A stretch of 64,000 nt of DNA from a virus (Duplodnaviria > Caudoviricetes): IMG/VR virus record IMGVR_UViG_3300025087_000689. The stretch is one strand, 5' to 3'. The translations under genes and the position numbers were made by a program. Positions 17,807 to 47,365 of the stretch are shown here, piece after piece (the first letter of the stretch is position 1; each line of letters starts with the position of its first letter). Under the pieces are notes generated by a model, which saw only the letters and a program-made list of their open reading frames with translations, made no database searches and was not told the DNA's origin.

Positions 17807-18487
17807 ATGGCTATTCTAAGTGAAAAAGTAACACAAACATATACTTCAATGTCGGGTTGTGATATTCAAGCTTTCATAGAGAGTGCCCTGCTTGGAAACA
17901 TCCAGGGTGTCTCTTTCTCTATAACAAGAGAAAAGGCTCCTATCTATGTTATGGGTCATGCTGATCCTGTATCATTCTCACGCGGTAAGCGTGGTATCGC
18001 AGGTTCTCTGATCTTTACTAACTTTGATAGAGAAGCACTCTACGATGTAAAGAAAAGTAGCACACTTGATCTGATGTATTATAAGAAAAACTTTGATATT
18101 GCAGCTGGTGGAAGATCTTACGATCTTCTAAATACATCTGGTATTGAAGCTTCCAAATCTCTTGAGGGTGCAAGAGCTGTAGCAAACTACAGTGATCAGC
18201 TCCCTCCTTTCTCAATCGTGCTTACCGGTGCGAATGAGTATGGTTCGACTATGTGGATGGCGATCCTTGGATGCGAACTTCTGAATGAAGGTGCAGGTCT
18301 TTCAATTGACGATATCGTTAATGAAACACAGATGACCTTCGTTGCAAGAGGTGTCATTCCTTGGCAACCTAAGACAACGAATCAGGATTGGAATCAGCTT
18401 ACTGAATCAGCACTGAATAAGTTTGCAAATACAGAAGCGTCGAGATCTATCGACAACTTCGAGTTAGTAAATGCACAGAATGCGTAA
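17807..18487 (+). CDS. Tail tube protein
   Basis: Directly after sheath. SGCDI...SFSITREKAPIYVMG...SRGKRGIAGSLIF motifs. Followed by a terminator. Confidence 0.8.
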   Translation: MAILSEKVTQTYTSMSGCDIQAFIESALLGNIQGVSFSITREKAPIYVMGHADPVSFSRGKRGIAGSLIFTNFDREALYDVKKSSTLDLMYYKKNFDIAAGGRSYDLLNTSGIEASKSLEGARAVANYSDQLPPFSIVLTGANEYGSTMWMAILGCELLNEGAGLSIDDIVNETQMTFVARGVIPWQPKTTNQDWNQLTESALNKFANTEASRSIDNFELVNAQNA

Positions 18488-18496
18488 TTAAGGGTT

Positions 18497-18533
18497 AGTA
18501 GAGGGGTATTACAACCCCTCTACTCTCTTTTTC
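18497..18533 (+). terminator. Rho-independent terminator after tail tube gene
   Basis: AGTAGAGGGGT (18497-18507) / ACCCCTCTACT (18514-18524), then CTCTTTTTCT. Confidence 0.85.
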
Positions 18534-18534
18534 T

Positions 18535-19929: not shown

Positions 19930-19951
19930 TAACTTATTGATATCTCAGTAG

Positions 19952-19978
19952 ATAGACACTATATAGGTGTCTATTTTT
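19952..19978 (+). terminator. Probable Rho-independent terminator
   Basis: ATAGACAC / GTGTCTAT inverted repeat followed by a T-run. Confidence 0.7.
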
Positions 19979-19981
19979 GTT

Positions 19982-20010
19982 TGGAATGATATACGATAAT
20001 AAAGTATAAT
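19982..20010 (+). promoter_or_regulatory. sigma70-like promoter
   Basis: TGGAAT-N17-TATAAT immediately after the terminator. Confidence 0.6.
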
Positions 20011-20017
20011 ATAGTAT

Positions 20018-30092: not shown

Positions 30093-33000
30093 TGGCTGAT
30101 AATTTAAGCGACGATATACTTGGTAATGATAACGATGTGAGTCCTCTATCAAGAGGAGTTTCTGTTGCAGGTTTGGTTACAGCTGGATTAGGTTTTCCAA
30201 GTTTATGGAAAACTTTTAAAGAGAAATATCCCAAAGGTATTGATATATTTGCTAATAGATTTACTAAAAATCAACCAACTGAGATTGAATTACAACATGC
30301 TATAAGTAAAACTATTTTTGAAAAATCTCTAGATTCTTCGCATTTGATTAAAAGTATAATGGATAAACCAGTTCTTTTTGATGAAAGATATGACAAAACT
30401 AATACTTCAACATGGGCACAGATGCAACGTAAGAGAAGACGTTTTGAACTTATAACATCTCCAGAGGGTAATCAAATAGAACAACTAGAGAACATGATTC
30501 AGAAAGCATCGAAGGATTTAGATATTATCGCTAATGATGAGGCATTACAGGTATACAGAAAAGAAGCAGTTGCTTTATATATACGTGAAATAGGAGAGAA
30601 AGAATTTCTTGGTAAGTTTCCATTAATGACCGGTTTTGTCAATGGATTAAAATCCGGTGCCATGATGAACACAGCCGATGTTAATAAAATATTTACAGAA
30701 GTTCTATCCCAAGGTAATTCTAATCTTTTAAATAGTTTATATAGAGATTTATTAAAATATGGACGCTCTGATAATGCTACTCTTTTAGCGTCCAGAAGTA
30801 AGATTGTTAAGTTACTGGATCGCCCGTCTAAATATCAAGGTCGACTTAATATTAATCAACCAACTAAAATCGACAAGAACTTCTATGAATTTCATGCATC
30901 GAAGTATAAAACAGGTGAATTGTTCGCGGAAGAAGTTATGGGGACGGTTCATCAAAAGATAGAATGGTCGGCGGAAAATAGAGCTAATAAAGTAGATCTT
31001 AAATTTAAAAATGTTTTAAAAGAATTATATAATGAGGTCCACAGTGAAAGATCCAGTCTTAAAGGTCCCGGATCCACATTTTCAGTTAGACTTACTAATT
31101 CCGGTGGAACTAGCAATGCTTTAGATAGACTAGAGATCTATTCTATTGATCCTGGTGGAGAAAAAAGAACATTCTTCTTGGATTTACCTAAAAAAGGTTA
31201 TATTAGAGGTGGACAAAGAGTACCTCAAACTTCAATTTATTCAGGTAAAGGTTTTATACCAAGTAATATAATCGAATCACAAGTTGATGGTTTAGCTTCG
31301 AATGTAAAAACTATTGCACACGCTCTCGTTACAGAAACAGATGGTAAACAAGAAGTGGCAAGAGTGCAAAGATGGTTTGACAAACAATTCAAGACAAGTG
31401 ATTTAGCAACCGGTAATACATATCTTGATACAGCAAAACGCGGAATAGTATCTCGTAATGATATGCCATGGTTAAATGCATCTACAAAAGCACTTAAAAA
31501 TAGAGCTAGTGGATTATTAGAATATAATACTTTAAATTATGTTAAGAAAACAGGACAAGATATATTAATTTATGATACTGAGTTCTATACAGGTAGAGCT
31601 GGAATCCAACCACTAGTTAAAACACCACAAGCGGCTAGGTTATATCAGATATCATATAGAAGGGTATCTTCTACAGGAGAAGCTCTCACTCATGGCAATT
31701 ATTATATAAAAGATGCGTCATTTGAAAGATTATATAAAGCGTATAAGAGTGGAACAACTTGTCTTGAATTAGAAAATCTTAAACATGTTTTAAATCAGAC
31801 AGGTAAAGGTACTCCAGAACATCTAGATTGGCTTATAGAAACGATTCAAAAAGAAGGTGTCACGCCTAAACAAGCTTTATCTAGGGTCTTTAATGAAGCG
31901 GGTAAAGGTGCCGCTATTTTAGATTTCGCTGGCAAAGGAGGTTCCGATAGAGCATTAATTGATTATATATCTCCTGAATTTTTAAAAGATAGAACTATGA
32001 TAGATATGTTAAAATTACAAAAATCGGCGTCATCCCTTGGTTCAGGATTTAGACTAACTCATGTATTTACTCGATTAGTTGAAAACGCCGATGAAATAGA
32101 ATTAAATAAGATAGTAAAAACATTGTCTTCCCATAGTAGTACTATTGCACATAATGATCTTATTCATAAATTAAGTAAGATGACGAATATTAGTAATCGT
32201 AAACAAATGATTATTCAAGCTGTGACAGCTGATAGTCATGATTCTAGTGTTGACGTTGCTGTTACTCACACGGCATTAAATCACGTATTAAGCGATAGGT
32301 CTCAAATGGGCAGCATATTAGGTTTCACTAATATGTTAAATAAAATAATGAATACTGGTTTTATAGATTTTAAAACCAGGGTTAATATGCTTAACTATGC
32401 TAATTTAGCTGTTCATTATACTGGTAAAGATGCCGCTGAAGATGCACTGTTTATGTCTACTATTCCAAATACTGTATCTGCGGGCGGTATGTTAAAGGGT
32501 AAGACACAGATGTTTCCGTATCATAGATTAGATCCTCTTAACGTACAAGATAGTAGTTTGCGTCAAATCCATCAAGTCATGAATGGTGTTCGTCTTGGTT
32601 ATTTAGGGGAACATGGGCATTTTTATGATCCGTACACAACCGCTTTTAGAAAAAATTTAGAAAGACAATCATCCAATATAGCTGAAAACATAGCAATTCA
32701 TGCGGAACCTGTAATGATTCCCACACTGGTGATAGCTAAAGGTTACGGTGTTGCCCCTGATGACTCTATTACAATAGATAGTAGGGTTCTAAATAAAACT
32801 GCAACAACGGTACGTCATAGAGAAAAGATAGTCAATTTTAAAGGTTTAAAACAAGAGGGATCTCTATTCGAACTAATTCATAGACTTACTAAAGATAAAG
32901 GTATTAATATTTTCAATGAAAAAACTACTTTAGATGCAGATGAATTAAATCATTTATTTGATCAGCATTTTAAGAAAGAACAGGGAGAGCTGGGTGAAGC

Positions 33001-36000
33001 TTATCGACATTCTCAAGCTAATGTAAATAATTTAAAAGGAAAATTTTATCAGTTTGAACAAGACACACTCATAGCAAAAGATATATCAGGACAAGAAATT
33101 AGGTCTAAACACACTGGCAACACTCGTTTTTCAAAAATAAGATTCACCAGGGGTCGAAACGGTGAACTCCAATTTGTTTATGAACTAGAAGAACTTATTA
33201 CAGCTGAAAAGGTTAGAGCTGGTTTTGGAAAAGGAATGGTATTTGGAAGTGGTGAACAGGGAATTATGGGTATCCTTGGACACCATAATGATAGTCCGGC
33301 TGTTGTGTCTGACAGATTAACAGCTAGATCTAGAATTAAACCAGAGATGTTGCTTTCAGGTAATCTATTTAGTAGAAGTGACGTAGGAACTACTAAGAAA
33401 TTAGCTTTAAATAGAATTTATGGAACTTATATGGCTGCTGGTGATCATACAGGAGCACAACGTTTCTTGCAAGATTTATTCGCTAGAAGCACCACTTATC
33501 AAACAGGTAATCAATCTCGTGTTTTATTAGATTATACTACTGTGGCTGAAGCATTGGATATAGCTAATGGAGTGAAAGCTGATACGTTATATAAACACAT
33601 GGAAAAAGTTGGACTAACATGGGATACGGCGAATATCAAAGCATTGGCTCAAAGCCATAATGTAACATACACAGCAGATAAAATTGAAATGTCTAAGCGT
33701 TTTGATGACCTAACAGTAAGAATGATTGAAAAAGATAAACTTAATATACTGGATGGTGTTAAAGCTAACTCAACGAAAATTTTAGACGCAGCCATGGATA
33801 ATGAACAAATTAAGTTTATGCGTTCAGTATATAATCCATATTTTAATTTTGTCAGAAATAAGATTGATTTTAATCATGAAACTAATGGCAGATTTATAGA
33901 TTTCACTAAGATTAAACGTGATGGAAAAACTGTTATAGCTCCAGTTTTACTGACATTTAGTGATATATTATCATCGATGTCGTATCAGATGCAACAACAA
34001 CAAGAAAGACAACATACTATCTCAGTGTCATCTGTTATTGAAAAGCAAATGGAGGCTTTACAGTCAAATTATAATAAATCAATGGAAAAGACACTCATAG
34101 ATAGAATGATTGGACAAAAGAAAAGAGGGACAAGAAAAACAATACTATCTATTTTTTCTATGTTGCAAGGGGCCGATAAATTAAGTGGTGTTAGTATAGG
34201 TGAGGTGGATATTAACGCAACTAAACAAATTTTAAGTAGGACGGCGTCTTATCAGCAACTTCATAAGTACTTTCGAGAAAATGGATTAGGATCTGAATTA
34301 CAAACTCCTGCATTTAAGAAATGGTATCATGAAGCTTTTTTAACTACTACTATTTCTGATCTGGAAATAGAAAGACGTGATTTAGAATTAAAGTTAGATA
34401 ATTCTACTCCCACTAATAGAAAAGAAATTATTAATTCTATAAAAGAGGTGGATGATCGACTTAAAGGAATGAAGACATCTTTTAAGATTAGTGAAGAGTC
34501 ACTAGCTATTAAAGATATCGAAAGTATGACTGATACATTGTATAACCATGCTTTTCGTTCTAATGGACAAGGAGAATTCGGAGATAAAAATATTGGAATA
34601 AATGGACCAAAGGTAGCTCCTCCAGACCTAATATTATTTAAATCTAAGAATTTCAGAATGGATAAAGATTTCTTTAAAATGGTTAGAGAACAGTTACAAG
34701 TATTGGATGAAAATTTACGAACCAACGATCCAAAAGCATTTAAAAGAAGAGAATTTATAGATAAAATTATTAACATGACGGAATCACAGGTTAAGAATAA
34801 AGGCGTACATGACGGTATTATTTTACCTAACGCTCATATATTAATGGATGCCATGAACTTATCAGCGAGACAGTTAGCTCTTGGAAGCGAAATACCATTA
34901 ACGCGTGGAAATTTAATGAATAGTATGCAAAATGTTCTATCTTCTATTATGCTTACTACATCTAATGAATTTGAAAATAGTAAGAGTAGTGATTACTTTC
35001 ATAAAAGAACGGCTAAAAAATATGCTGAATTCCTGGGTGATTTAGCTCATAGGGTTGTTGGAAAGAACGGACTTTTCTCAAGAGAATTAGAATTACAAGG
35101 AACATATGGATTGTTAAATTCTCCATTTGCTTTTAAAAAACAAGTAGGTGGAATGGTGAGAGATCACAATAAACTTAAAGAAATAATTAGAGAAAAATAT
35201 AATAAAGCGACCAAAGATAATGGATTTGATGTAAGAAAAGCTAATACTCAGAAAATTATAAATCGTCACGTTGAAAGAGAATTTAATGCATCTCTAGAAT
35301 TAAATGAGAAGATTCAATCCGGTAGATATAACTTTATTGCTCGTAGTGAATTCATGAAACATCAAGTTAATGTTGGAAATGCTACTATGTCAGTTGGTAA
35401 GTTTTTCGAAAAAGAACTTAAAGAAGGACGACTGACAAAGGAAGAAATTAGATTAATGAAGACTGGAGGAAAATCTGTTCCAGTAGGAATTAGCAGATAT
35501 CCTTTAGAATCTAATATGTGGGGTTTGTTTTCTGGTGAAACCTTTGTATACGATCAAAATTGGGCCGTGTTTCAAGATGTAAGAAAAGGTACAGTTCCTT
35601 CTCTAGATACTATGTTAATGTTAAGAGCTGACTCTGATGGCGATAATATAGTAACTAGATTATTAAATGTTAAAAATATGGAAGAACTAAATAAGGTTCT
35701 AACTGAAAGACGAGGTAGAACTAAAGACGTATATGAGGCTATGTTTCAATATCAAAATAATCTTTTTAAGTTTGGAAATACGACTAAAGCTAAAGAGATA
35801 ACCGAGAAGATGTATGGTAAAAAGTTTCAACCAAGTGAGATACGAAGTATAATAACACTGACGACTGAGATGTTAGAAGATTATGGACATAAAGTGAGCA
35901 AAGATCCTATCATTGGACATAAATTAGAGGAGTTGCAGCAATCTGAAATTAATAAACTTGGTAATTTAAAATTTATAGATGCATCTATATCAGATTTAAA

Positions 36001-37159
36001 AAAGTTTGTTGGATCTGAATCAATTCAAGAACTAATAGAAGAGAAAACAAGAAGATTTAGAGCTAGGGTAGTTGGTCAAGCATCTGTGGGTTATCTATCT
36101 TCCGCAGCCAGTAAGTTTAAAGCCAGAAAAGATCTTATAATGGAAAGAATAAGTTTAATTAAAGATCCCAAACTCCAACAAGATATGATAAAATTATTTC
36201 CAGGAATGAATCAAGCAAATGAGAACGCGGTTAAGATTTTTGGCGATACAATGAGTACTATGTTTCAAGATTTAAATAACTCCTATGATGATTTAATAAG
36301 AAGTTTAACACATCAAGGACCGGAACAAAAAGCTATAAGTATGAAGAAACTAACTGAAAATGATGCCATATCACACGTTTTAAATGTCGTTAGTCACGTT
36401 GATGACTTAGATAATGCATCGGTTCAAGGATCTTTTAAACGTCTTAGTATCGATATCAGTAAAGATAATTTAAAAAAATGGAGATTCTTTCAAGATATTC
36501 ACAAAACATTATTAAAATCTGACCCAAACTATGAGAGACAGTATCATGATGCTACTGTAGATTTAACACATAATGGTAAGAATGTAATGGATTTATTAAA
36601 TATGTCTCTATCTGCTAGATTTTCACAAGGGTTCGAACAATTAACTCCTAAAGAACTACAACATGCTATGTCTGCTTATACTGAAAGTACCACACCTAGT
36701 TTTGGAACAAAAGTTAGTACAGCTTGGAGAAATTCGGTTAAACAAGTACTTGAGATGAAACCAGCTAAGTCCGTCTTAGGACTTGGGATAGGACTAAGTA
36801 TATTAAGTCTTGGCAGCCCAGATCAGCTAGCTGGTGGTATTAGTAGTTTTGGTATTGATATCGGTCATCGTCCAGGTTTTAAATCAGACTCAGATATTGG
36901 AATGGAATCGTTATCTGCAGAACCAGGACAAGATGTTTTTACTCAAAAATGGACTTATTTATTGAATAACGACCCTATTTTAAAGGATAATATAAGTGCA
37001 CTAAGTGATAGAAGTTATAAGGATTTAACTATGAATAAGAAGATATATACGCAGTTTAATCCATCTAAGAAATTTAAAAGAAATTATATTGATTATAGAA
37101 AGAATTATAATAGCAGATATCAAACTAACGATATGCGTAGAACTCAAATAGGAATGTAA
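30092..37159 (+). CDS. Putative single-chain two-barrel (DPBB) RNA polymerase with N-terminal DEDDh exonuclease, virion-associated
   Basis: Ordered motifs: DTE (495-497), D619, HxxxxD (716-721); GYGVAPDDSITI (D890/D891), K1040...GK1047G, SR (1094-1095), GKNGLFSREL (1657), RYP (1802), ADSDGD (D1847/D1849/D1851), SVGYL, EQKAISMKK (2078). Confidence 0.8.
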   Translation: MADNLSDDILGNDNDVSPLSRGVSVAGLVTAGLGFPSLWKTFKEKYPKGIDIFANRFTKNQPTEIELQHAISKTIFEKSLDSSHLIKSIMDKPVLFDERYDKTNTSTWAQMQRKRRRFELITSPEGNQIEQLENMIQKASKDLDIIANDEALQVYRKEAVALYIREIGEKEFLGKFPLMTGFVNGLKSGAMMNTADVNKIFTEVLSQGNSNLLNSLYRDLLKYGRSDNATLLASRSKIVKLLDRPSKYQGRLNINQPTKIDKNFYEFHASKYKTGELFAEEVMGTVHQKIEWSAENRANKVDLKFKNVLKELYNEVHSERSSLKGPGSTFSVRLTNSGGTSNALDRLEIYSIDPGGEKRTFFLDLPKKGYIRGGQRVPQTSIYSGKGFIPSNIIESQVDGLASNVKTIAHALVTETDGKQEVARVQRWFDKQFKTSDLATGNTYLDTAKRGIVSRNDMPWLNASTKALKNRASGLLEYNTLNYVKKTGQDILIYDTEFYTGRAGIQPLVKTPQAARLYQISYRRVSSTGEALTHGNYYIKDASFERLYKAYKSGTTCLELENLKHVLNQTGKGTPEHLDWLIETIQKEGVTPKQALSRVFNEAGKGAAILDFAGKGGSDRALIDYISPEFLKDRTMIDMLKLQKSASSLGSGFRLTHVFTRLVENADEIELNKIVKTLSSHSSTIAHNDLIHKLSKMTNISNRKQMIIQAVTADSHDSSVDVAVTHTALNHVLSDRSQMGSILGFTNMLNKIMNTGFIDFKTRVNMLNYANLAVHYTGKDAAEDALFMSTIPNTVSAGGMLKGKTQMFPYHRLDPLNVQDSSLRQIHQVMNGVRLGYLGEHGHFYDPYTTAFRKNLERQSSNIAENIAIHAEPVMIPTLVIAKGYGVAPDDSITIDSRVLNKTATTVRHREKIVNFKGLKQEGSLFELIHRLTKDKGINIFNEKTTLDADELNHLFDQHFKKEQGELGEAYRHSQANVNNLKGKFYQFEQDTLIAKDISGQEIRSKHTGNTRFSKIRFTRGRNGELQFVYELEELITAEKVRAGFGKGMVFGSGEQGIMGILGHHNDSPAVVSDRLTARSRIKPEMLLSGNLFSRSDVGTTKKLALNRIYGTYMAAGDHTGAQRFLQDLFARSTTYQTGNQSRVLLDYTTVAEALDIANGVKADTLYKHMEKVGLTWDTANIKALAQSHNVTYTADKIEMSKRFDDLTVRMIEKDKLNILDGVKANSTKILDAAMDNEQIKFMRSVYNPYFNFVRNKIDFNHETNGRFIDFTKIKRDGKTVIAPVLLTFSDILSSMSYQMQQQQERQHTISVSSVIEKQMEALQSNYNKSMEKTLIDRMIGQKKRGTRKTILSIFSMLQGADKLSGVSIGEVDINATKQILSRTASYQQLHKYFRENGLGSELQTPAFKKWYHEAFLTTTISDLEIERRDLELKLDNSTPTNRKEIINSIKEVDDRLKGMKTSFKISEESLAIKDIESMTDTLYNHAFRSNGQGEFGDKNIGINGPKVAPPDLILFKSKNFRMDKDFFKMVREQLQVLDENLRTNDPKAFKRREFIDKIINMTESQVKNKGVHDGIILPNAHILMDAMNLSARQLALGSEIPLTRGNLMNSMQNVLSSIMLTTSNEFENSKSSDYFHKRTAKKYAEFLGDLAHRVVGKNGLFSRELELQGTYGLLNSPFAFKKQVGGMVRDHNKLKEIIREKYNKATKDNGFDVRKANTQKIINRHVEREFNASLELNEKIQSGRYNFIARSEFMKHQVNVGNATMSVGKFFEKELKEGRLTKEEIRLMKTGGKSVPVGISRYPLESNMWGLFSGETFVYDQNWAVFQDVRKGTVPSLDTMLMLRADSDGDNIVTRLLNVKNMEELNKVLTERRGRTKDVYEAMFQYQNNLFKFGNTTKAKEITEKMYGKKFQPSEIRSIITLTTEMLEDYGHKVSKDPIIGHKLEELQQSEINKLGNLKFIDASISDLKKFVGSESIQELIEEKTRRFRARVVGQASVGYLSSAASKFKARKDLIMERISLIKDPKLQQDMIKLFPGMNQANENAVKIFGDTMSTMFQDLNNSYDDLIRSLTHQGPEQKAISMKKLTENDAISHVLNVVSHVDDLDNASVQGSFKRLSIDISKDNLKKWRFFQDIHKTLLKSDPNYERQYHDATVDLTHNGKNVMDLLNMSLSARFSQGFEQLTPKELQHAMSAYTESTTPSFGTKVSTAWRNSVKQVLEMKPAKSVLGLGIGLSILSLGSPDQLAGGISSFGIDIGHRPGFKSDSDIGMESLSAEPGQDVFTQKWTYLLNNDPILKDNISALSDRSYKDLTMNKKIYTQFNPSKKFKRNYIDYRKNYNSRYQTNDMRRTQIGM

Positions 37160-37356
37160 TGCCACAACTCAATATTAGTATCACGTTAGATAATATAGAC
37201 TCTGAAATAGACGCCAACCAGTTAGCGTCCACCATTGAGAATATTATAAGACAAAATAGCGGAATAGATAATATACAAACTAGTATTTATGATAATGATG
37301 GAAGTAATAGTGGAAATCCTATTATGGCACAGAACATTATGAGGAAGATAAAGTAA
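37159..37356 (+). CDS. Small hypothetical protein (65 aa)
   Basis: TAATG-coupled on both sides. Beta-strand/helix pattern LNISITL...ANQLASTIENII. Confidence 0.6.
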   Translation: MPQLNISITLDNIDSEIDANQLASTIENIIRQNSGIDNIQTSIYDNDGSNSGNPIMAQNIMRKIK

Positions 37357-40300
37357 TGGGAAAACCTACCTTTGAAAATAAATCGCATGATGATGAAAAA
37401 TCTTTTGCGAAAATGAGGAAATATGAACCTCTTAAAGATCTCGTTGATGTTATTGATCTATTATCTAAAAAATATAATATACATATTACATCTTTAGGTA
37501 GAGGTTTTAAACCTGGTTTTACAACTACTACTTCAGTTGCTACTGCACTAGGTCTTAAAGATCCTCTCATTAGTATTGTTAATAAGTTCTTTAATAGAAC
37601 TGATGTTAGTGAGAATGAATTTATATATAAGAAAGTAATTTGGGAATCTTCTGATCCTATTAATGATCATAATTTTGTTAAGTATAGTCCACACTTTTGG
37701 ATTCCTGATCAACCTTTTGGATGTGCGGTAGATATTAGATCAAAGAATTTTACTGAATCTCAAATACAATCAATTGTTAATATAATTAAAGCTCAGAATA
37801 AAGAATTATATGTTTTAGTTCATTCAATTAAAGGTAACTATCCCCATATTCATCTACAACATGATGGAGTTTATAAAGCTGGATTAAACACAATGAAAGA
37901 TCTAGTAGATGAGGCTTGTGGATATACAAAAATACGAAAAACTTATTCGGCATTAAATCCGGCTAAACTTGTAAAAAGAGATCCTGACTACGTGGATACT
38001 TTTAAAAAGCTCGATAACGCAATCTGTGATGGATTTACAGCGGCTGATATCGCAGAAACTCTAGACATAGCTAATCAAAAACCTAATTTAAAAGATAAGA
38101 AAGATACTAGAACTATACTTCCGTCAGATATAGATAATAATGGATTAATGGAAGTTCTTAGAATTGGTGATATTAATTTTAGCGTGTGTCCAGTAACTCA
38201 GATTTCATATTCACAATCAATGCAATATGTTAGATTTTCTACATTGAGAACAGTCGGAGATCCAAAAATAGCTAATGACACCGTCCCAAATAACGTTACC
38301 TTGAATATAATCTTTCCAAATGCTGATGCTATTAATAACCAAATGAGATCCCTCATAGCACAGTTTATGGTAACTCCGATAACTATAGTTCAAAATAGAT
38401 TCATAACTAGAACATTAAAACCATTGATTATCAATCATAAGGGTGAGACCGAGGCTAATCCTTTATTATCACCAGAAGATGAGAGTATCTGGATGATAAT
38501 GACTGATTTAAATGTTAGATCTATTCCAAATTTTCCAGAAGCGTTTGAAGTATATATTACATTAGAGATGTTCGAAGATAGGGTTTTTGGTAATAAACTA
38601 AAGTTTCTTGTTGATTATAAAGATTTACAAGAAAAATATAGGCGGAAACAAGAGATTTTTGGTCATCAATATATAATACCTTCTGAAAAAACTATGTTAA
38701 AATCGGCAGCGGATTTTAAACCAGGGATTATCAATGTTACATCTGATCCTAATAATTCAGAATTATATAAAAACTTTTATCAATCTGTCGCTAATACATT
38801 TGAATTATACTATCCAGAACAGGATACAAAAACTGGTGGAAAATTAACTGTTTTATACAATTCTTATAATTATAGTAGAGAAAATATTCGAAAAGTTAAA
38901 AAGACGATGGAAGAAGAATATAATCAATCGTTATTAGAGACTCAAGATATTATTAAAGAACTTCAACCAGGAGAAATTAAATGGTTCGCTGGTAAGGGAT
39001 TAAATGTTATAAAACCAGATGTAATACAGTTAATAAATAAAACAGGAAGAACTACTATTGATTTACTGGAGTTGACGATATCCAATTTTGAGTCTGTAAA
39101 ATCGTTGCATAATTTTCGTTACTCTGTGATGGATCCGATATTTAGATTTAGACAGTTATCTAAGGATGCTTCGATATATGTTAATAGGATCGGAGATGAA
39201 TTAGGATTAACTTCTTGGGATAAACAACAAGTTTTAAAAATATTTAATAGTGCACTGGGACGAATTGGAACACTAGAAAAATATAGCACCGGACTAGCTA
39301 GTGCATTTAAAACAGACGCCAATGGTAATCCATTGAGCAATCAATTAACTAATCCTACACCCGCTCAAGATATTGGTCGGACTGATGGTTTAATAGGTGG
39401 ATTAGAAGCTCTAATAGGTGAAATGTTATTTACGGTCGAAGGTGGAAAAAACGAAGCTTTATCGAAACGAGCAGCTAAAATCAACACCGCATTAAAAAAG
39501 ATAACTGAATTATGTCTTGGTGATATTAATGAAGAAAAACCAGGATCAAATCTCGATCAGGACGGGTTACCAACATTTATTGCACGTTATAGTAGTGTAG
39601 ATTTAATAGATGGAAAAGATAGTATATCTACAGGTGTATCATTTTCTATTAGTAATAAGGTTATTCCACAGCAGGTTATTGGATGGAAACAACCTACATT
39701 TCAACATCTAGGTCGAAGTGATTGGTCTATTAACATGAATATTATTTGTAAGAATGATGAAGCTATTCGTAATATAATGTTCATACTTAATAAAATGGGA
39801 GTTTTATCTAAACAAATACAGTTTACATCACCTGCCAAATTTATTAATCTTGATACAACATTACATATTCAAGAAGGCGATCCAATCTTTGGAGTATTAG
39901 GAATAAATAGTTTTGTTTTAAATACGGTTGAGGTATCTAGTATTCCTGGTCAACCAGGAGAATATCAGATTAATTTAGGTTTAGAACAAGCAGATTTATC
40001 TATTCACACGGCTGAAAAAATCGAAGAATCGTCAGCAAAACAAAAAAACAAAGAGTCGTCTCAGTTAATTCTTAAAGATATATTACCCGTCTTAAAGGCT
40101 ATAGTTATTAATAAAGATCGTAAAGATTATGGACAGATATTGGATTTCGAAAAAATAAAAGACGCAATTGATAATCCTAATCTAAATGAATACTGGAAAG
40201 CTTATGGTGTTGATTCTTACGATTATATGGATAAATATAATTTTTATAAATTAATGCTTGGAACTAAAAAAGTAACAGACCCAGATAAAGATTGGGATCT

Positions 40301-43300
40301 TTTGGTAATGGATCTATTTCCAACGGATACTAATTTTTCATCCAATAAGTACTTTTCATCTAATAAGTCAGGACATGCATTTATAACAAGTATAATTAAA
40401 TTAAATAATTTAATTATAACTGAAACGGCTGGTAATTTGATCTGGCCTAAAGGTTCTGTAAAAACTTCACTTGGTTTAGTTGAATCTCTACAATTTTATT
40501 TTGAAAGTATTGGTCATTTGGCGAATGCTTCCAAAAATCATGTCGCTACCCAAACTGTGGATAAAAATAGTGCTCTGTGGCGAGCACTTGGTGTTAGTGC
40601 TGGTGGCACAGCTTTAGTTGGAACAGTAGGTACTCTAATAGGTATAGGGCCTGTTGGATGGGGTATTTTGATGGGTGTTACAGCCATTGCTCTTGGTGGT
40701 GGTGCTATAGGTTATGTTTTTTCTGAAGATACATTATTAGCCATTAAAGATAAATTACCAGAGATTTTACCTGCCGCATTTAATATAACTGTTAATAATA
40801 GAATTATAGAATTAGCAAAAGAATTCTTATTAGATGATACGTCGCTTGATGTTTTTTCTTCTGACTTTGAAATTGGAAATGGAGTAATTTTACAGGATAG
40901 AATGAGATCTATAAGAGAAGATATTGCAACTTCTCTAAAAGGTTGTTATAATGATTTTGAAAGTCAGATACAATTAGCATCAAAGAAAACTGGAATATCT
41001 TCATCCTTTCTGGATCCTGCTTTTTATCTGTATTCGGACGATTTCATTACGGTCGATTTAATTAGAGAGTTACGTATTGATATTCAAAATCGACTAAGTA
41101 TGTTGGCTACAAGGGCCAATATTAATGCACTACAACTGGGGACAGTTGTAGCAGATAAATACTTTCCTAAAACAGGATCAAATAAATATAATGTCGAATT
41201 AGATAAATTGCTTATTCCGCTTCCAAAAGATAGTTTAATTACTCAACAAGACTTACAATGGGTGGTTGATGTTCGTAATAAAATTGTCCAAATTAATAAG
41301 AATGCTTTTGATGATGCCAATAAAGAAAATATTCAAAAATTAATGGGACTTCAAAATAATACAAAAGAATTTGAAGAAGTATTTCTTAATGATTATTGGC
41401 CAGAACGCGTTAAAGGTGAAAGAACATCAGTTGTAATGGAAGCTGCATTTGCCAGATTACAATTAATTAATTCTGCTTTAAGATTTGAAACTATTAAAAG
41501 TTCTCTTGATAAAGCAACCGAACAAGTTAGTAGAGGCAGATCATCCTTTAGAAAAGATATGGCGAGTCAGATACAATTAAGAGAATATAATAAACTCTTT
41601 AAAGATGTCGAATATCCAAAAGTTGTGGCACGTAACCCCACTATGACATGGTATGAAGCGATTATAGATGCAGGTGGAATAGGTAATCCATATATTGGTG
41701 CTACATCAGTCGATAAAGTTTTTTCTGAGATCAATGGTAAGAGTATGTATACTTACTTTACTAACGACGGCATGAGAGAATTACTTTATCAAATAGAAAC
41801 AATAGCTAAATGTAAGAAAGCAATGAATAATAATACATCTGCTGAATTAATGGCAGCTTACAATGCATTGGAAGCCGATCCTAGAATGCTTCAAAAACGA
41901 ATTGATCAAATACAAAGTTTACAAGATATCTTATTTAAAGCCACGCTAAATGATAATACTGGTAATCCAATTCGTATTTTTCCTACTTTTAAGATATATT
42001 TTATCGAAGAGGATGCACCCGAGTGGGGTATCTTTAATGACTTCTATGACTATAGTGCGGTTCAAGAGATTACCGTGGTCAAAGATAGAAAGTCTGCTTC
42101 AGATACATGTGTTATTAAATTATCGAATGTGGCTGGTAAATTAACTGATTCTTTTGCTGAAAATATACCAGAAATCGGGACAGACAATTTACCATTAACT
42201 TCTATGATGTTAAAACCAGGTATGTCCATACTTGTAAAAATGGGATATAGCAATAGTCAGGTAGAATTACCTGTTGTATTTTATGGTATTATAATTGAGG
42301 TTGCACCGGGACCTATTGTTGAGATTATATGCCAGGGTTATGGGGCTGAATTAAATGAGATTATTGCTCCTGGAGAAGGAGTACATCATGGTGTATTTGG
42401 AGATGTCAAAGCATTAGGCGATGTTGCAACCTGGGCTATTCAGCAAGCTACTGGTCTTAATCATTTTGGTAAATTAGGTTATACAAGTTTTGGTATTAAA
42501 GATACACTAAGATTGTCCGGCACCGCTACCACAGGATTACAAGGTCAGATGAAAATAGGTTCTTTTATAACGGGGTTGCCGGGTTTAAATATTAACGACC
42601 CAAGAGACGATAATATTTTCTTGTCTTATAATATTGGAAATATTAAGAAAGAAAAACAAATCACAGGATCTTTAAATTTAGCACTAGAATGGTTAATTTC
42701 AAAATGGGAATTATCAGGTAATCTTCATTTTGATTGGTATATCAGAGATCAAAGTATATGGGATGTGTTATCAGAACTAGTATACTTTAGTCCAGATTTT
42801 CTTAAGATAGTATTACCATATAATGATAATTTATTTCCATTTATACCTAAGATTCGAAATACGTTGTATGTAGGGCCTAGACGTGGTTACTATAAGTACA
42901 CTGATATGTTTTCTATGATATCCGTTGATAACAATATTGAATTTTCTAATGCTAATAAAGTGGCTGATATTTTATTTCGTATGGCTGAAGATATTACTTA
43001 TAACGATGAAATTCCACATACCGATATTATTGATAAACTGGTGGCCGATTTCAAATCATTGACTGATAATGACACCTTATTTAAAACAGCTATTTTCTAT
43101 TATTTCGGTATTGCTGAAACTGGTTCTACAACAGTACAGGCATTTAACGCACAAGAAATTGGTAAAAGAGATCAGATAATAAAACTGTCAAAAGCATTTA
43201 GAAAAGAATTTACTAATTATGAAACAATACTCACAGATTATAAGACAATACAAAAGGGTTCTAAGCTTGAACATATCAATCGAAATTTTGAAGAGAATTT

Positions 43301-44651
43301 AAAAAAGTTAGTTGTGAATAATATAGGTTTTAATGGCATCTATTATAATATATATGGTAATAATCATCAATATAAAAAAGTACAACAACATCATATAGCC
43401 ACTGCTTATACTAATATTCTAAATAATAATATAATAGCTTCTGCCGACGGGTGGGCTAATCAGATTAAATTAGTTTGTCCGGTAGATCCGACAAATGCAA
43501 ATGATATAAACGATGTTCCTATCGAAGATAAGGGAGAATTGGTAACAACTATATTTAATTTAGATGATAATATACTTGATGATCAGATTCGTTCAAAACA
43601 AATGTTTATAAATAATATCGATCCTAGTATGTGGGATGATTCCATATGGGCTAAAAAAATATTACAGGGAGAAGGAACTTGGTGTAATATCGATGGTGAA
43701 CAATATACTGGATTGGAACAAAATGGAGAACCTAAAGTTAAAGAGCGACAATCTACTAAAGATGAGGATGTACAATATAGATTAAGCAGAAATGCATGGG
43801 AGTTATTACCATCAAGGTGGAGAGTAGGTATTAGTATTTTAGCTGAAGAAGCTAGAGATATGTATAATGGCGAATTAACTATTATTGGTGATAGCACTAT
43901 TAGACCATATGATGTTATTCATTTGATCGACTATGTTAATGACATGCATGGTTCATTTGAAGTCGGAAGGGTAATTCATTCTCTATCACCTCAGACTGGA
44001 TTTATTACTAGAATCAAACCCGATCTCATAGTTAATCAAAAGAATAAATTTAATACAGATGAATTATATGTGGCGTCAAATCTTATGTCTCAATCTTATA
44101 GTAGATCTATATTGATTGGTGTTGGTACTGTCGCTGGAATGGGATTAACTAGTTTGAGTGTATTTAATTTAGTGAATTCTGCTGTTAAATCTAGTGCCTT
44201 ACTTGCTGGAGTTTCCTCTACTTTAGGTATACTTGGGATTACAGCTGGTGTCGGATTAGTTGCGTTTGCTGGTTATAAAGCTATTAAATATCATCATGAG
44301 CGTATTATAATGATCATGAATAATATTATAGGTAGAGATTCATTAGAAATTTTACCTTTAACGTATCGTAATATTCCCTATGTTGCTGGTATTGAAGGAT
44401 ACAAGAAGGATAGTTATTTACGCCATATGATAAGTTCTTCTTTAGATGAAACTGGTAAGTATAGTGTTTTTGAAAGAATGGGATATATGAACGCTCCACT
44501 AGAGTTTGAATTTTATAGAAATGTGGTTGGTGATAGTCCAGTATGGTCATGGATACAGACAAATATATTGTCTAATAAAGAAGGCGTTAGTGGTCTAGAT
44601 AGCTTTGTGGCGGCTAAACGTGCGTTCTTTAATTTAGGAGAAACGAGATAA
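37356..44651 (+). CDS. Giant baseplate hub protein (gp27-like C-terminus) with N-terminal M15-like peptidase domain
   Basis: C-terminal LKPGMSILVKMGYSN...VEIICQGYGAEL and MYNGELTIIGDSTIRPYD...FEVGRVIHSLSPQTGFITRIKPD are hub-like. N-terminal ITS..R, CAVDIR and HIH motifs. Confidence 0.7.
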   Translation: MGKPTFENKSHDDEKSFAKMRKYEPLKDLVDVIDLLSKKYNIHITSLGRGFKPGFTTTTSVATALGLKDPLISIVNKFFNRTDVSENEFIYKKVIWESSDPINDHNFVKYSPHFWIPDQPFGCAVDIRSKNFTESQIQSIVNIIKAQNKELYVLVHSIKGNYPHIHLQHDGVYKAGLNTMKDLVDEACGYTKIRKTYSALNPAKLVKRDPDYVDTFKKLDNAICDGFTAADIAETLDIANQKPNLKDKKDTRTILPSDIDNNGLMEVLRIGDINFSVCPVTQISYSQSMQYVRFSTLRTVGDPKIANDTVPNNVTLNIIFPNADAINNQMRSLIAQFMVTPITIVQNRFITRTLKPLIINHKGETEANPLLSPEDESIWMIMTDLNVRSIPNFPEAFEVYITLEMFEDRVFGNKLKFLVDYKDLQEKYRRKQEIFGHQYIIPSEKTMLKSAADFKPGIINVTSDPNNSELYKNFYQSVANTFELYYPEQDTKTGGKLTVLYNSYNYSRENIRKVKKTMEEEYNQSLLETQDIIKELQPGEIKWFAGKGLNVIKPDVIQLINKTGRTTIDLLELTISNFESVKSLHNFRYSVMDPIFRFRQLSKDASIYVNRIGDELGLTSWDKQQVLKIFNSALGRIGTLEKYSTGLASAFKTDANGNPLSNQLTNPTPAQDIGRTDGLIGGLEALIGEMLFTVEGGKNEALSKRAAKINTALKKITELCLGDINEEKPGSNLDQDGLPTFIARYSSVDLIDGKDSISTGVSFSISNKVIPQQVIGWKQPTFQHLGRSDWSINMNIICKNDEAIRNIMFILNKMGVLSKQIQFTSPAKFINLDTTLHIQEGDPIFGVLGINSFVLNTVEVSSIPGQPGEYQINLGLEQADLSIHTAEKIEESSAKQKNKESSQLILKDILPVLKAIVINKDRKDYGQILDFEKIKDAIDNPNLNEYWKAYGVDSYDYMDKYNFYKLMLGTKKVTDPDKDWDLLVMDLFPTDTNFSSNKYFSSNKSGHAFITSIIKLNNLIITETAGNLIWPKGSVKTSLGLVESLQFYFESIGHLANASKNHVATQTVDKNSALWRALGVSAGGTALVGTVGTLIGIGPVGWGILMGVTAIALGGGAIGYVFSEDTLLAIKDKLPEILPAAFNITVNNRIIELAKEFLLDDTSLDVFSSDFEIGNGVILQDRMRSIREDIATSLKGCYNDFESQIQLASKKTGISSSFLDPAFYLYSDDFITVDLIRELRIDIQNRLSMLATRANINALQLGTVVADKYFPKTGSNKYNVELDKLLIPLPKDSLITQQDLQWVVDVRNKIVQINKNAFDDANKENIQKLMGLQNNTKEFEEVFLNDYWPERVKGERTSVVMEAAFARLQLINSALRFETIKSSLDKATEQVSRGRSSFRKDMASQIQLREYNKLFKDVEYPKVVARNPTMTWYEAIIDAGGIGNPYIGATSVDKVFSEINGKSMYTYFTNDGMRELLYQIETIAKCKKAMNNNTSAELMAAYNALEADPRMLQKRIDQIQSLQDILFKATLNDNTGNPIRIFPTFKIYFIEEDAPEWGIFNDFYDYSAVQEITVVKDRKSASDTCVIKLSNVAGKLTDSFAENIPEIGTDNLPLTSMMLKPGMSILVKMGYSNSQVELPVVFYGIIIEVAPGPIVEIICQGYGAELNEIIAPGEGVHHGVFGDVKALGDVATWAIQQATGLNHFGKLGYTSFGIKDTLRLSGTATTGLQGQMKIGSFITGLPGLNINDPRDDNIFLSYNIGNIKKEKQITGSLNLALEWLISKWELSGNLHFDWYIRDQSIWDVLSELVYFSPDFLKIVLPYNDNLFPFIPKIRNTLYVGPRRGYYKYTDMFSMISVDNNIEFSNANKVADILFRMAEDITYNDEIPHTDIIDKLVADFKSLTDNDTLFKTAIFYYFGIAETGSTTVQAFNAQEIGKRDQIIKLSKAFRKEFTNYETILTDYKTIQKGSKLEHINRNFEENLKKLVVNNIGFNGIYYNIYGNNHQYKKVQQHHIATAYTNILNNNIIASADGWANQIKLVCPVDPTNANDINDVPIEDKGELVTTIFNLDDNILDDQIRSKQMFINNIDPSMWDDSIWAKKILQGEGTWCNIDGEQYTGLEQNGEPKVKERQSTKDEDVQYRLSRNAWELLPSRWRVGISILAEEARDMYNGELTIIGDSTIRPYDVIHLIDYVNDMHGSFEVGRVIHSLSPQTGFITRIKPDLIVNQKNKFNTDELYVASNLMSQSYSRSILIGVGTVAGMGLTSLSVFNLVNSAVKSSALLAGVSSTLGILGITAGVGLVAFAGYKAIKYHHERIIMIMNNIIGRDSLEILPLTYRNIPYVAGIEGYKKDSYLRHMISSSLDETGKYSVFERMGYMNAPLEFEFYRNVVGDSPVWSWIQTNILSNKEGVSGLDSFVAAKRAFFNLGETR

Positions 44652-46087: not shown

Positions 46088-47365
46088 ATGTCTATAACCC
46101 AAATTTCTCGCTCTCAGTTTGATATACTACGTGACGCTAGGGAAAACTTAGTACAAAATGTAGGCGTCAGTGCTGATAATGAAACATCTACATCGTTGAA
46201 TTTGCTTAAATCTATGTCAAAAGAAGTGGCTTCGATGTGGGATCGTATGAATACACTATTACGTATGGGTTTCATTACGACAGCTTTCGGTGAAGGTCTA
46301 GACGAGATAGGTGTATTTTTACAAGAACCAAGAGCTGGTTTTAAAAGATCAATGGATCTTAGTACAACTAACCTTAAATTTTATCTTGATGAATCATATG
46401 CTAGAGACATAACTGACTTACTTAATAGGTATTTAACTATCAGGGATCGTAATGAGTTACTTGAACAGGGTGTAATAGATAGTGCAACTAATCCATCATT
46501 GATTAATATTCCCGCGAACTTACTGGTAACTAATAATGATGGTACTATTTCATATACTGTCATGAATTCTATGACTTTATCTAATACACAAACATCTGAT
46601 TTTAGTCCTCTTATAGCTACAGGCACTGGTTCTAGTTTTAATGCAGCTCCTGGAACATTAGTTAGACATAATCTAACTTCTATCTATCCTATCTTATCGA
46701 AGGTAAAAGAAGCTATTAAAGTAAAAAATCTTTATGGTATTCGAAATGGTGGTGATATAGAGGGCGATGAAAACTATAGATTTAGACTTTCGAATAAAGT
46801 AGTAGCCGCTGTATCTGGTAATAACGCATCCATTCGCCAAGCTGTTTTATCGGTTCCTGGTGTAGTCGATATGGCTCTCATCCCTCGTACTCATGGTAAT
46901 GGAACATTTACCATCTTTCCTAGGACCTCCGATCCTATTCTGTCAGATGGCGTCATGACTGCGGTTGAAGCAAGTGTGCAGAGTGTTATAGCTGGTGGAA
47001 CTATTGTATATGTAGATGCACCAGATTATCTTGCTGTAGCAATGAGACTAGAACTTCGATTCTTACCTGGGGCCGATAAGAATGCTCTTTTTGCTAATGC
47101 TAGACTTGCGGTTATGGATTATATTAACAATCTAGATTTGGGCGGAGAGATAGTTATTAATGAAATCATCCAGATTGTTATGTCTTTAGATGATAAGATT
47201 ATGGATATGAGTATTCCTCAATTTGGATTTGGTTTTCTCGATAGAGTAACAGGTGCTATTACTTCGTATACTCCACTTAGATTAATGAATCAGGTGGCCG
47301 ACTACAATCAAAAATGGTACACTAATAGTAGCCTCTGTTCCATTTGTCAAGCAGGAACTAGATAA
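46088..47365 (+). CDS. Baseplate J-like wedge protein
   Basis: TAFGEGLDEIG, GGDIEGDENYRFRL and AVLSVPGVVD...HGNGTFTIF are Baseplate_J signatures. Confidence 0.85.
   Translation: MSITQISRSQFDILRDARENLVQNVGVSADNETSTSLNLLKSMSKEVASMWDRMNTLLRMGFITTAFGEGLDEIGVFLQEPRAGFKRSMDLSTTNLKFYLDESYARDITDLLNRYLTIRDRNELLEQGVIDSATNPSLINIPANLLVTNNDGTISYTVMNSMTLSNTQTSDFSPLIATGTGSSFNAAPGTLVRHNLTSIYPILSKVKEAIKVKNLYGIRNGGDIEGDENYRFRLSNKVVAAVSGNNASIRQAVLSVPGVVDMALIPRTHGNGTFTIFPRTSDPILSDGVMTAVEASVQSVIAGGTIVYVDAPDYLAVAMRLELRFLPGADKNALFANARLAVMDYINNLDLGGEIVINEIIQIVMSLDDKIMDMSIPQFGFGFLDRVTGAITSYTPLRLMNQVADYNQKWYTNSSLCSICQAGTR

What the first reader, a model, noticed from the sequence alone, without database searches (positions are those of the whole stretch)
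32741..36350. Unannotated single-polypeptide two-barrel RNA polymerase hidden in the tail module
Seen versus known E. coli motifs, all in the correct order. Beta-like: GYGVAPDDSITIDSRV vs RpoB GYNFEDSILVSERV; EKVRAGFGKGMV vs GDKMAGRHGNKGV; PEMLLSGNLFSRSDVG vs DIVLNPLGVPSRMNIG. Beta'-like: LAHRVVGKNGLFSREL vs RpoC LADMIKGKQGRFRQNL; ISRYP vs LNRAP; RADSDGD (35624-35644) vs NADFDGD; QASVGYL vs bridge helix TANSGYL; EQKAISMKK in the trigger-loop position. The beta-then-beta' single-chain layout matches crAss-like phi14:2 gp66 and eukaryotic RNAi polymerases (QDE-1). The motifs are separated by long divergent insertions, so standard annotation would probably call it hypothetical or tape measure. 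Inference: an active virion RNAP (DNA- or RNA-templated) of a distinct lineage in a contractile-tailed phage.
Basis: partly seen in the sequence, partly recalled or inferred. Interest (0 to 1): 0.96.

Follow-up and report, generated by a model that had tools for sequence, protein, structure and literature searches.

The report
Divergent RNA-polymerase-like giant tail-module protein
A 2355-residue protein in the tail gene block of an uncultured groundwater jumbo phage very probably carries the catalytic barrel of a cellular-type RNA polymerase, so it may be an enzyme the phage injects to start its own transcription; the second half of the active site and any activity are unproven.

Summary
Every motif sits at the stated coordinates in one 2355-aa ORF (30092-37159, +), and the E. 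coli strings are real and in the same order.

No Pfam, PHROG, PDB-sequence, INPHARED or whole-protein hhalign search recognises the protein. Three independent lines still support a beta'-type double-psi barrel (DPBB-A, aa ~1650-1870):
- The family is small: six full-length members at 24-55% identity. Only 8.5% of columns are invariant, yet these include the single DxDxD (D1847/D1849/D1851), R1802/P1804, G1657/K1658, and K1040/K1047/R1095/G1099. Positions identical to E. coli are invariant 13/32 against 3.8 expected (P about 1e-5).
- Domain-restricted hhalign against RpoC is colinear, P=0.019.

No single match is significant. The beta-like barrel, bridge helix and trigger loop rest on motifs only. 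Virion delivery is inferred from tail-module position and TAATG coupling.

Verdict: probably a new, very divergent single-chain two-barrel polymerase family in a contractile-tailed phage. Precedents are P23-45 gp96 and crAss gp66. The same stretch was also noted by another first-stage reading of this genome.

The parts
30092..37159 (+). Whole ORF, 2355 aa (P0001). The start overlaps the stop of the upstream 2490-aa ORF (TAATG), and the stop overlaps the start of a 65-aa ORF (TAATG).
   Evidence: full-length homologues at 24-55% identity
31544..32296 (+). DEDDh-like 3'-5' exonuclease-like region (aa ~485-735). D495, E497, D619, H716 and D721 are invariant, with H-x4-D spacing.
   Evidence: Invariant columns. 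No Pfam or PDB-sequence hit. Fold not tested.
32717..33436 (+). Candidate beta-like barrel (DPBB-B), aa ~876-1115: GYG...DDSI block (884-899), EK-x6-KG block (invariant K1040, K1047), FSR-x3-GT-x-K block (invariant R1095, G1099, T1100, K1102).
   Evidence: The hhalign mapping to RpoB is colinear but not significant. No reliable model.
33437..34996 (+). Mostly helical connector of about 520 aa between the two candidate barrels, in the position of the clamp connector of single-chain two-barrel RNAPs.
   Evidence: Secondary structure of the low-confidence model. Layout of known enzymes from PMC10770324. Inference.
35039..35701 (+). Beta'-like double-psi barrel (DPBB-A), aa ~1650-1870: GK-x-GL (invariant G1657, K1658, L1661), helical insertion of about 60-80 aa, SGR-YNFI (G1744), SRYP (R1802, P1804), RADSDGD.
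35630..35644 (+). DSDGD (D1847, D1849, D1851): putative Mg-binding catalytic triad and the only DxDxD in the protein.
   Evidence: All three Asp are invariant in six homologues; the second position varies S/T/L/N. hhalign places it on NADFDGD.
36023..36151 (+). Long predicted helix (aa ~1978-2020) containing QASVGYL with invariant G2000. It is a candidate bridge helix; alternatively it is the trigger-loop base (family consensus QNIGxxGIG against beta' AAQSIGEPGTQ).
   Evidence: Helix in the low-confidence model. hhalign P=0.23, equal to the reversed control. Unresolved.
36320..36349 (+).
   Evidence: Conservation only. Role untested.
36689..37156 (+). C-terminal module (aa ~2200-2355), the most conserved part of the family: a Gly-rich hydrophobic stretch, then GHRPGF...EPGQDV...DPILKDN...KRNYI...TNDMRR. 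Proposed assembly or anchoring module.
   Evidence: 54 invariant columns in the last ~155 aa, against about 4 per 50 aa elsewhere. Role inferred.
22620..30092 (+). Upstream giant ORF (2490 aa) directly after two small chaperone-position ORFs. It has a LAGLIDADG/Hom_end hit (aa 1695-1768) and a Cas4/PD-(D/E)XK-type nuclease hit (aa 1901-2061).
37356..44651 (+). Downstream giant ORF (2431 aa) with Gly-zipper transmembrane-like segments (aa 1077-1123, 2251-2310) and a PHROG 'endolysin' hit near the C-terminus. Probably a tape-measure or hub-type protein.
14925..17795 (+). Tail sheath gene (956 aa), which sets the contractile-tail context.
   Evidence: phrog_16991, E=3e-75
46088..47365 (+). Baseplate J-like wedge gene.
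   Evidence: PF04865, E=6e-22; phrog_6

Best explanation
P0001 is a giant late-expressed protein of a contractile-tailed jumbo phage. Its aa ~876-2090 form a very divergent single-chain two-barrel nucleic-acid polymerase, most likely a DNA-dependent RNA polymerase.

Shown:
- A beta'-like double-psi barrel (aa ~1650-1870) presents an invariant Asp triad (DSDGD), presumably for the catalytic Mg.

Inferred from invariant residues only:
- An upstream beta-like barrel (aa ~876-1115) supplies the conserved Lys/Lys/Arg (K1040, K1047, R1095) that in cellular RNAPs contact the RNA 3' end and the NTP.
- A ~520-aa helical connector plays the clamp-connector role.

Inferred from context:
- The gene lies between the tail-chaperone-position genes and the baseplate. 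It is translationally coupled to two other giant proteins and ends in an extremely conserved C-terminal module.
- It is therefore probably assembled into the tail or virion and ejected into the host with the DNA, where it would transcribe the first phage genes independently of host RNAP. This is what P23-45 gp96, crAss gp66 and N4 vRNAP do.
- An N-terminal DEDDh-like region may add a nuclease activity.
For: 1. Conservation. Only 199 of 2355 columns (8.5%) are invariant across six homologues at 24-55% identity. The invariant set contains D1847/D1849/D1851 (the only DxDxD), R1802/P1804, G1657/K1658/L1661, G1744, K1040/K1047 and R1095/G1099/T1100/K1102. Positions identical to E. coli beta/beta' are invariant 13/32 against 3.8 expected, P=1e-5.

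2. Fold. The AF2 model of aa 1636-1885 has pLDDT 65 and pTM 0.59, with the barrel strands in the 80s.
- Foldseek on PDB: 46 of the top 50 are RNAP largest subunits (bacterial beta', Rpb1, ASFV, Pol IV/V, PEP). The best is 7l7b_D, E=0.033, prob 0.89.
- BFVD and AFDB clusters bring RNAP subunits, baculovirus LEF-9 and ASFV RPB1 on the same query residues 110-230.

3. Profile comparison. Family aa 1740-1885 against 77 RpoC sequences (335-500) gives a 122-column colinear alignment (SGR/SGR, RxP/NRAP, ADxDGD/NADFDGD), P=0.019. Cross and reversed controls give 0.14-0.67.

4. Layout. The order DPBB-B then DPBB-A with a connector is that of known single-chain enzymes (PMC10770324).

5. Context. Sheath upstream and Baseplate_J downstream; TAATG overlaps; synteny kept in a homologue's contig; the C-terminus is the most conserved part. 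A TMP-fused two-barrel vRNAP has precedent.
Against: - No significant sequence hit to any RNAP family: Pfam, PHROGs, PDB sequences by phmmer or profile, and whole-domain hhalign against gp66, RpoB/RpoC and their MSAs. HMMs of the two regions do not rank RpoC or RpoB correctly among 1860 background ORFs.
- The model's catalytic loop and GK motif have pLDDT below 50.
- The beta-like barrel has no structural support (1200-aa model pLDDT 47.5; Atlas model of fragment P0006 pLDDT 0.40). Its hhalign P is 0.31-0.62.
- The residue after the first Asp is S/T/L/N, not the aromatic residue seen in E. coli NADFDGD, gp66 DFDID and gp96 DFDGD.
- A fused DEDDh-like region is not, to my knowledge, a feature of known RNAPs.
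- Virion association and activity are untested.
Confidence: 0.55

Rival explanations
1. The protein is a tape-measure or ejection-type structural protein. The RNAP-like motifs are chance or a degenerate relic, the barrel-like domain has no polymerase activity, and the conserved DxDGD binds a metal for another purpose.
For: - No statistically significant sequence or structure match to any RNAP.
- Tape-measure position in the tail module, and a largely helical protein.
- A reader searching 2355 residues for short motifs can find resemblances.
- The beta-like half is unsupported by fold or profile.
Against: - The E. coli-identical positions, chosen without knowledge of homologues, are strongly enriched among the 8.5% invariant columns (P=1e-5).
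- The Asp triad is invariant and unique in the protein.
- Three fold libraries independently return RNAP largest subunits on the same residues.
- The VIA alignment falls on beta' 356-497, exactly where the motifs predict.
- Strict conservation of catalytic-type residues argues against a relic.
Confidence: 0.22
2. It is a genuine two-barrel polymerase but not a DNA-dependent RNA polymerase. It could be a DNA polymerase or primase-like enzyme (as archaeal PolD is a two-barrel DNA polymerase) using the fused DEDDh-like domain for proofreading, or an RNA-templated enzyme like QDE-1.
For: - The invariant DEDDh-type residues D495, E497, D619, H716 and D721 lie N-terminal to the barrels. From general knowledge, 3'-5' exonucleases of this type typically accompany DNA polymerases.
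- PolD and QDE-1 share the two-barrel core (PMC10770324; PMC9508822, abstract).
- The second position of DxDxD is non-aromatic, unlike the RNAPs compared.
Against: - The top-50 listed structural matches are RNAP subunits and none is PolD DP2, though RNAP entries are far more numerous in the PDB.
- The motifs match beta/beta' strings closely.
- The exonuclease fold itself is untested (no Pfam or PDB hit).
Confidence: 0.1
3. It is an active two-barrel RNAP but is not packaged. It would be a non-virion enzyme that merely happens to be encoded in the late structural operon.
For: Nothing in the sequence proves packaging, and no virion proteome exists for this uncultured phage (sources are groundwater and soil metagenomes).
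Against: - Translational coupling inside the chaperone-giant-giant-giant-baseplate block, conserved in a relative.
- The hyper-conserved C-terminal module.
- An RNAP made only late is useful chiefly if it is carried into the next cell, as in the characterised cases gp96 and gp66 (annotated from virion MS/MS).
Confidence: 0.08

Closest known systems
Thermus phage P23-45 gp96, a tape-measure-fused virion two-barrel RNAP (PMC10770324)
   Same: - Giant protein in the tail or tape-measure position.
- Single chain with DPBB-B before DPBB-A.
- One conserved DxDGD.
- Undetectable by standard sequence searches and first spotted through its DxDxD.
- Proposed here to work the same way, with delivery through the tail to transcribe the earliest genes.
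   Different: - gp96 belongs to a siphovirus and is one 5002-aa protein, RNAP at the N-terminus and TMP after it. Here the candidate sits in the middle and C-terminal part of a 2355-aa protein, flanked by two other giants, in a phage with sheath and baseplate genes.
- There is no sequence similarity: tblastn on INPHARED, which holds P23-45, finds nothing, and hhalign gives P 0.31, equal to the reversed control.
- The motif is DSDGD rather than DFDGD.
- gp96 is not reported to have an exonuclease-like domain.
crAss-like phage phi14:2 gp66 virion RNAP
   Same: - About 2200-aa single-chain protein with the Asp triad far from the N-terminus (DFDID at 1361 of 2180, against DSDGD at 1847 of 2355).
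- Encoded in a run of three giant genes of the virion module: g065 4.3 kb, g066 6.5 kb, g067 5.4 kb.
- Ejected cargo.
   Different: - gp66 belongs to a podovirus.
- No detectable similarity: hhalign probability below 1% and P 0.78 at domain level.
- Neither gp66 nor QDE-1 appears among the top 50 listed structural matches, which are cellular-type beta'/Rpb1.
Cellular multisubunit RNAP beta and beta' (E. coli RpoB/RpoC)
   Same: - Motif strings and their order.
- The best structural alignments fall on beta' 356-497.
- A colinear profile alignment runs across the beta' barrel.
   Different: - One polypeptide instead of two subunits.
- Long lineage-specific insertions.
- No significant Pfam RNA_pol_Rpb1/Rpb2 hit.
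- A non-aromatic residue inside the triad.
- No evidence for the other RNAP domains.
phiKZ-type jumbo-phage virion RNAP
   Same: A jumbo contractile-tailed phage that carries its own two-barrel RNAP into the cell (PMC13282480, PMC7598289).
   Different: - phiKZ vRNAP is multisubunit, with split beta and beta'.
- It is packaged in the head.
- It is recognisably related to bacterial RNAP.

Membership tests
Two-barrel (double-psi beta-barrel) RNA polymerase superfamily | DPBB-A (beta'-type) fold | tested here: met
Two-barrel (double-psi beta-barrel) RNA polymerase superfamily | Conserved DxDxD metal-binding triad in DPBB-A | tested here: met
   D1847, D1849 and D1851 are invariant in six homologues and form the only DxDxD in the protein. 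hhalign places them on NADFDGD.
Two-barrel (double-psi beta-barrel) RNA polymerase superfamily | DPBB-B (beta-type) barrel with conserved basic residues facing the active site | tested here: inconclusive
   K1040, K1047, R1095 and G1099 are invariant. No usable model exists. hhalign to RpoB is colinear but P is 0.31-0.62.
Two-barrel (double-psi beta-barrel) RNA polymerase superfamily | Bridge helix and trigger loop after DPBB-A | tested here: inconclusive
   A long helix at 1978-2020 appears only in the low-confidence model. G2000 and the PEQ..S.K block are invariant. hhalign P is 0.23, equal to the reversed control, and it prefers a trigger-loop-base alignment.
Two-barrel (double-psi beta-barrel) RNA polymerase superfamily | Significant sequence-profile match to RNAP families | tested here: not met
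   No RNA_pol Pfam hit even at E up to 10. No PDB-sequence hit. Known divergent members (gp96, gp66) also fail this test according to PMC10770324.
Two-barrel (double-psi beta-barrel) RNA polymerase superfamily | Template-dependent NTP polymerisation | not testable with these tools
   This needs biochemistry.
crAss-like gp66 vRNAP family | Detectable homology to gp66 | tested here: not met
   hhalign probability is below 1% and the domain-level P is 0.78. tblastn on INPHARED finds nothing.
P23-45 gp96-type TMP-fused vRNAP | Detectable homology to the gp96 N-terminal 1200 aa | tested here: not met
   hhalign P is 0.31-0.62, no better than the reversed control. tblastn on INPHARED, which holds P23-45, finds no match.
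Virion-delivered (ejected) phage RNAP, a functional class | Presence in virions and entry into the host | not testable with these tools
   Only context is available: tail-module position, TAATG coupling and the conserved C-terminal module.
DEDDh (DnaQ-like) 3'-5' exonuclease | ExoI DxE, ExoII D and ExoIII H-x4-D acidic residues | tested here: inconclusive
   D495/E497, D619 and H716/D721 are invariant. There is no Pfam or PDB-sequence hit and the fold was not modelled.

The most novel reading that the evidence does not exclude
This is a new family of single-chain two-barrel polymerase. It would have arisen independently of the gp66/QDE-1 and gp96/gp64 lineages, by fusion of cellular-type beta and beta' cores. 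It is coupled in one polypeptide to a DEDDh exonuclease and delivered through a contractile tail as one of three giant enzymatic cargo proteins (nuclease, polymerase, hub). The exonuclease fusion would make it either the first two-barrel RNAP with a dedicated proofreading or processing nuclease, or a virion-borne two-barrel DNA polymerase.
Probability: 0.25. Interest if true: 0.88.

Novelty: new variant of a known kind. Interest (0 to 1): 0.7.

Why it matters
Virion-delivered two-barrel RNA polymerases are known from crAss-like podoviruses (gp66) and one Thermus siphovirus (gp96, fused to the tape measure). In jumbo myoviruses only the multisubunit, head-packaged phiKZ type is described (PMC13282480).

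A single-chain, tail-module enzyme in a contractile-tailed jumbo phage would show that all three tail morphotypes have evolved delivery of such a polymerase. It would add a family with no detectable sequence link to the known ones. Its motifs look closer to cellular beta/beta', which bears on how often RNAP cores were captured and fused by phages.

It would also give a concrete example of giant "tape-measure-position" proteins acting as enzymatic cargo. The caveat is that only one of the two barrels has structural support so far.

Tried and rejected
- **Whole-protein searches found nothing relevant.** These were phmmer against PDB sequences, Pfam, PHROGs and tblastn on INPHARED phages. blastn of the sheath gene also found nothing.
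- **Profile searches of sub-regions against PDB sequences gave noise only**. This included an artefactual PPR-repeat hit for the exonuclease-like region.
- **Pfam per member at E up to 10 gave no RNAP family**.
- **hhalign of whole regions** against gp66, against single E. coli RpoB and RpoC sequences, and against 67- and 77-sequence proteobacterial MSAs put no barrel alignment on top.
- **hmmsearch --max with the two region HMMs** against 1860 background ORFs picked long proteins of the wrong subunit at E of about 1.
- **AF2 of aa 860-2059** gave pLDDT 47.5. Its Foldseek and VIA searches returned dyneins and helical hairpins, which is meaningless.
- **Complex prediction of the two candidate barrels** (A9 + A8) gave no verdict (score 0.00, controls not run). 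This is neither support nor evidence against.
- **ESM Atlas** gave no usable feature hits. The Atlas model of fragment P0006 is too poor, pLDDT 0.40.
- **Attempts to enlarge the family failed.** IMG/VR twice and JGI metagenomes once found no relatives. The word-indexed 5.8-billion protein search found only P0002.
- **No whole genome is held for this window**, so a second (non-virion) RNAP elsewhere in the phage could not be sought.
- **No RNA holder is listed** among the sequencing runs.
- **The three giants do not share a C-terminal module:** BLASTP between them shows nothing.
- **Bridge-helix and trigger-loop hhalign** was no better than the reversed control.
Full report
**What is there**

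The finding lies inside a single open reading frame, 30092-37159 on the + strand, of 2355 aa. It is the middle one of three giant ORFs of 2490, 2355 and 2431 aa. A 65-aa ORF lies between the second and third. The junctions at 30090 and 37157 are TAATG stop/start overlaps.

Upstream are a tail sheath gene (phrog_16991, E=3e-75) and tube-like paralogues. Downstream is a Baseplate_J wedge gene. The setting is therefore the tail module of a contractile-tailed phage.

The cluster record lists a longest contig of 221,625 bp, so this is a jumbo phage. The stretch is held by groundwater and soil metagenome runs.

**Check of the observation**

The E. coli strings are genuine and occur in the same order in RpoB (809, 1063, 1095) and RpoC (327, 423, 458, 790). 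DSDGD (aa 1847-1851, window 35630-35644) is the only DxDxD in the protein.

**Is it more than motif-spotting?**

Standard searches say nothing:
- There is no Pfam, PHROG or PDB-sequence hit.
- tblastn on 50,697 phage records finds nothing. That collection includes phi14:2 and P23-45.
- Profiles of the sub-regions find no RNAP in PDB sequences or Pfam, even at E up to 10.
- Whole-region hhalign against gp66, RpoB/RpoC and 67- and 77-sequence RpoB/RpoC alignments does not put the barrels on top.
- An hmmsearch against 1860 background ORFs is uninformative.

By those criteria the claim fails. However, the characterised divergent enzymes gp96 and gp66 are reported to fail them too (PMC10770324).

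**Conservation test**

An exhaustive HMMER search of 1.84 billion representatives found a small family: four further full-length proteins at 24-27% identity plus three fragments. The word-indexed search added one 55% relative.

In the six-sequence alignment only 199 of 2355 columns (8.5%) are invariant. That small set contains:
- all three Asp of DSDGD;
- R1802 and P1804 of SRYP;
- G1657, K1658 and L1661 of the GK-x-GL block;
- on the beta-like side, K1040, K1047, R1095, G1099, T1100 and K1102.

**Fold test**

A 1200-residue model (aa 860-2059) was too poor to use (pLDDT 47.5).

A model of aa 1636-1885 alone reached pLDDT 65 and pTM 0.59. The barrel strands are in the 80s, but the GK motif and the catalytic loop are below 50. 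The results for this model were:
- **Foldseek on PDB.** No match reaches E of 0.001 or better, but 46 of the top 50 are RNAP largest subunits: bacterial beta', Pol II Rpb1, ASFV, plant Pol IV/V and plastid PEP. The best is 7l7b_D at E=0.033, prob 0.89.
- **BFVD and AlphaFold-DB clusters.** Both again return RNAP subunits, baculovirus LEF-9 and ASFV RPB1, on query residues 110-230.
- **Domain-restricted hhalign.** Family aa 1740-1885 against RpoC 335-500 gives a 122-column colinear alignment (SGR/SGR, RxP/NRAP, ADxDGD/NADFDGD), P=0.019. Cross-paired and reversed controls give 0.14-0.67.

**What remains unproven**

- **Beta-like barrel.** It has the right invariant basic residues.
- **Convergence of the two barrels.** The two-chain prediction gave no verdict, so this is untested.
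- **Bridge helix.** The QASVGYL assignment is no better than a reversed control. The family consensus QNIGxxGIG could equally be the trigger-loop base.
- **Triad composition.** The residue inside the triad is S/T/L/N, not the aromatic residue of NADFDGD, DFDID or DFDGD.

**Mechanism proposed**

- Shown: a conserved beta'-like barrel with an invariant acidic triad, in a giant protein of the tail module.
- Inferred: an upstream beta-like barrel completes a two-barrel active site, and the ~520-aa helical stretch between them acts as the connector or clamp element. That is the DPBB-B, connector, DPBB-A order of single-chain enzymes.
- Inferred from context: the protein is made late, is coupled to its giant neighbours, and carries a hyper-conserved C-terminal module. 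That module has 54 invariant columns in the last ~155 aa and could anchor it in the tail or baseplate. It would be ejected with the DNA to transcribe the first genes, as shown for P23-45 gp96.
- The gene order is the same in a 26-29% identical relative, with ORFs of 102, 224, 2093, 2366 and 65 aa.
- A DEDDh-like set of invariant residues (D495, E497, D619, H716, D721) suggests an N-terminal nuclease. This keeps open the rival that the enzyme is a DNA polymerase rather than an RNAP.

**Comparison with known systems**

- It works most like P23-45 gp96 (tail-delivered two-barrel vRNAP) and crAss gp66 (a ~2200-aa vRNAP in a run of three giant virion genes).
- It is not a member of either family by any sequence test.
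- Its nearest structural matches are cellular-type beta'. The single-chain phage or RNAi enzymes are absent from the 50 listed rows of each search, though the PDB holds far more cellular RNAP entries.
- The 2026 jumbo-phage review describes only multisubunit, head-packaged vRNAPs for jumbo phages.

**Verdict**

- The most likely reading is a new, very divergent single-chain two-barrel polymerase family in a contractile-tailed jumbo phage (confidence about 0.55 for the full statement, and higher for the beta'-like barrel alone).
- Novelty: a new variant of a known kind.
- Interest: 0.7.
- The same stretch had already been flagged by another first-stage reading of this genome (e1-5402253).

Noticed in passing
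window 22620-30092 (+), aa 1695-1768 and 1901-2061 of the 2490-aa ORF: The upstream giant, in the tape-measure position, has a LAGLIDADG/Hom_end hit (PF14528 E=4e-5), which could be an intein or a homing-endonuclease insert. It is followed by a Cas4/PD-(D/E)XK-type nuclease hit (phrog_1706 E=5e-16). This would be a second enzymatic domain among the tail-module giants.
   Followed up: partly
window 37356-44651 (+): The downstream 2431-aa giant has Gly-zipper transmembrane-like segments (aa 1077-1123, 2251-2310) and matches a PHROG labelled 'endolysin' (phrog_20474, E=1e-45, best stretch aa 2156-2235). It may be the true tape-measure or hub protein.
   Followed up: partly
window 31544-32296 (+), aa ~485-735 of P0001: A DEDDh-like pattern (D495-x-E497, D619, H716-x4-D721) is invariant in all six family members. 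No family database recognises the region, and its fold is untested.
   Followed up: partly
window 36689-37156 (+), aa ~2200-2355 of P0001: The C-terminal ~155 aa are by far the most conserved part of the family, with 54 invariant columns. They match nothing known and are not shared with the two neighbouring giants.
   Followed up: partly
window 17807-21621 (+): Three consecutive ORFs after the sheath (226, 464 and 499 aa) all hit phrog_9206, which is labelled 'major head protein'. By position they look like tail-tube paralogues, so the PHROG label may be misleading.
   Followed up: no
Neither alignment beats a reversed control.
   Followed up: partly
whole window: No relatives of this phage's giant protein were found in INPHARED, IMG/VR or the JGI metagenome contigs. 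The DNA is held by groundwater and soil metagenome runs from several studies.
   Followed up: partly
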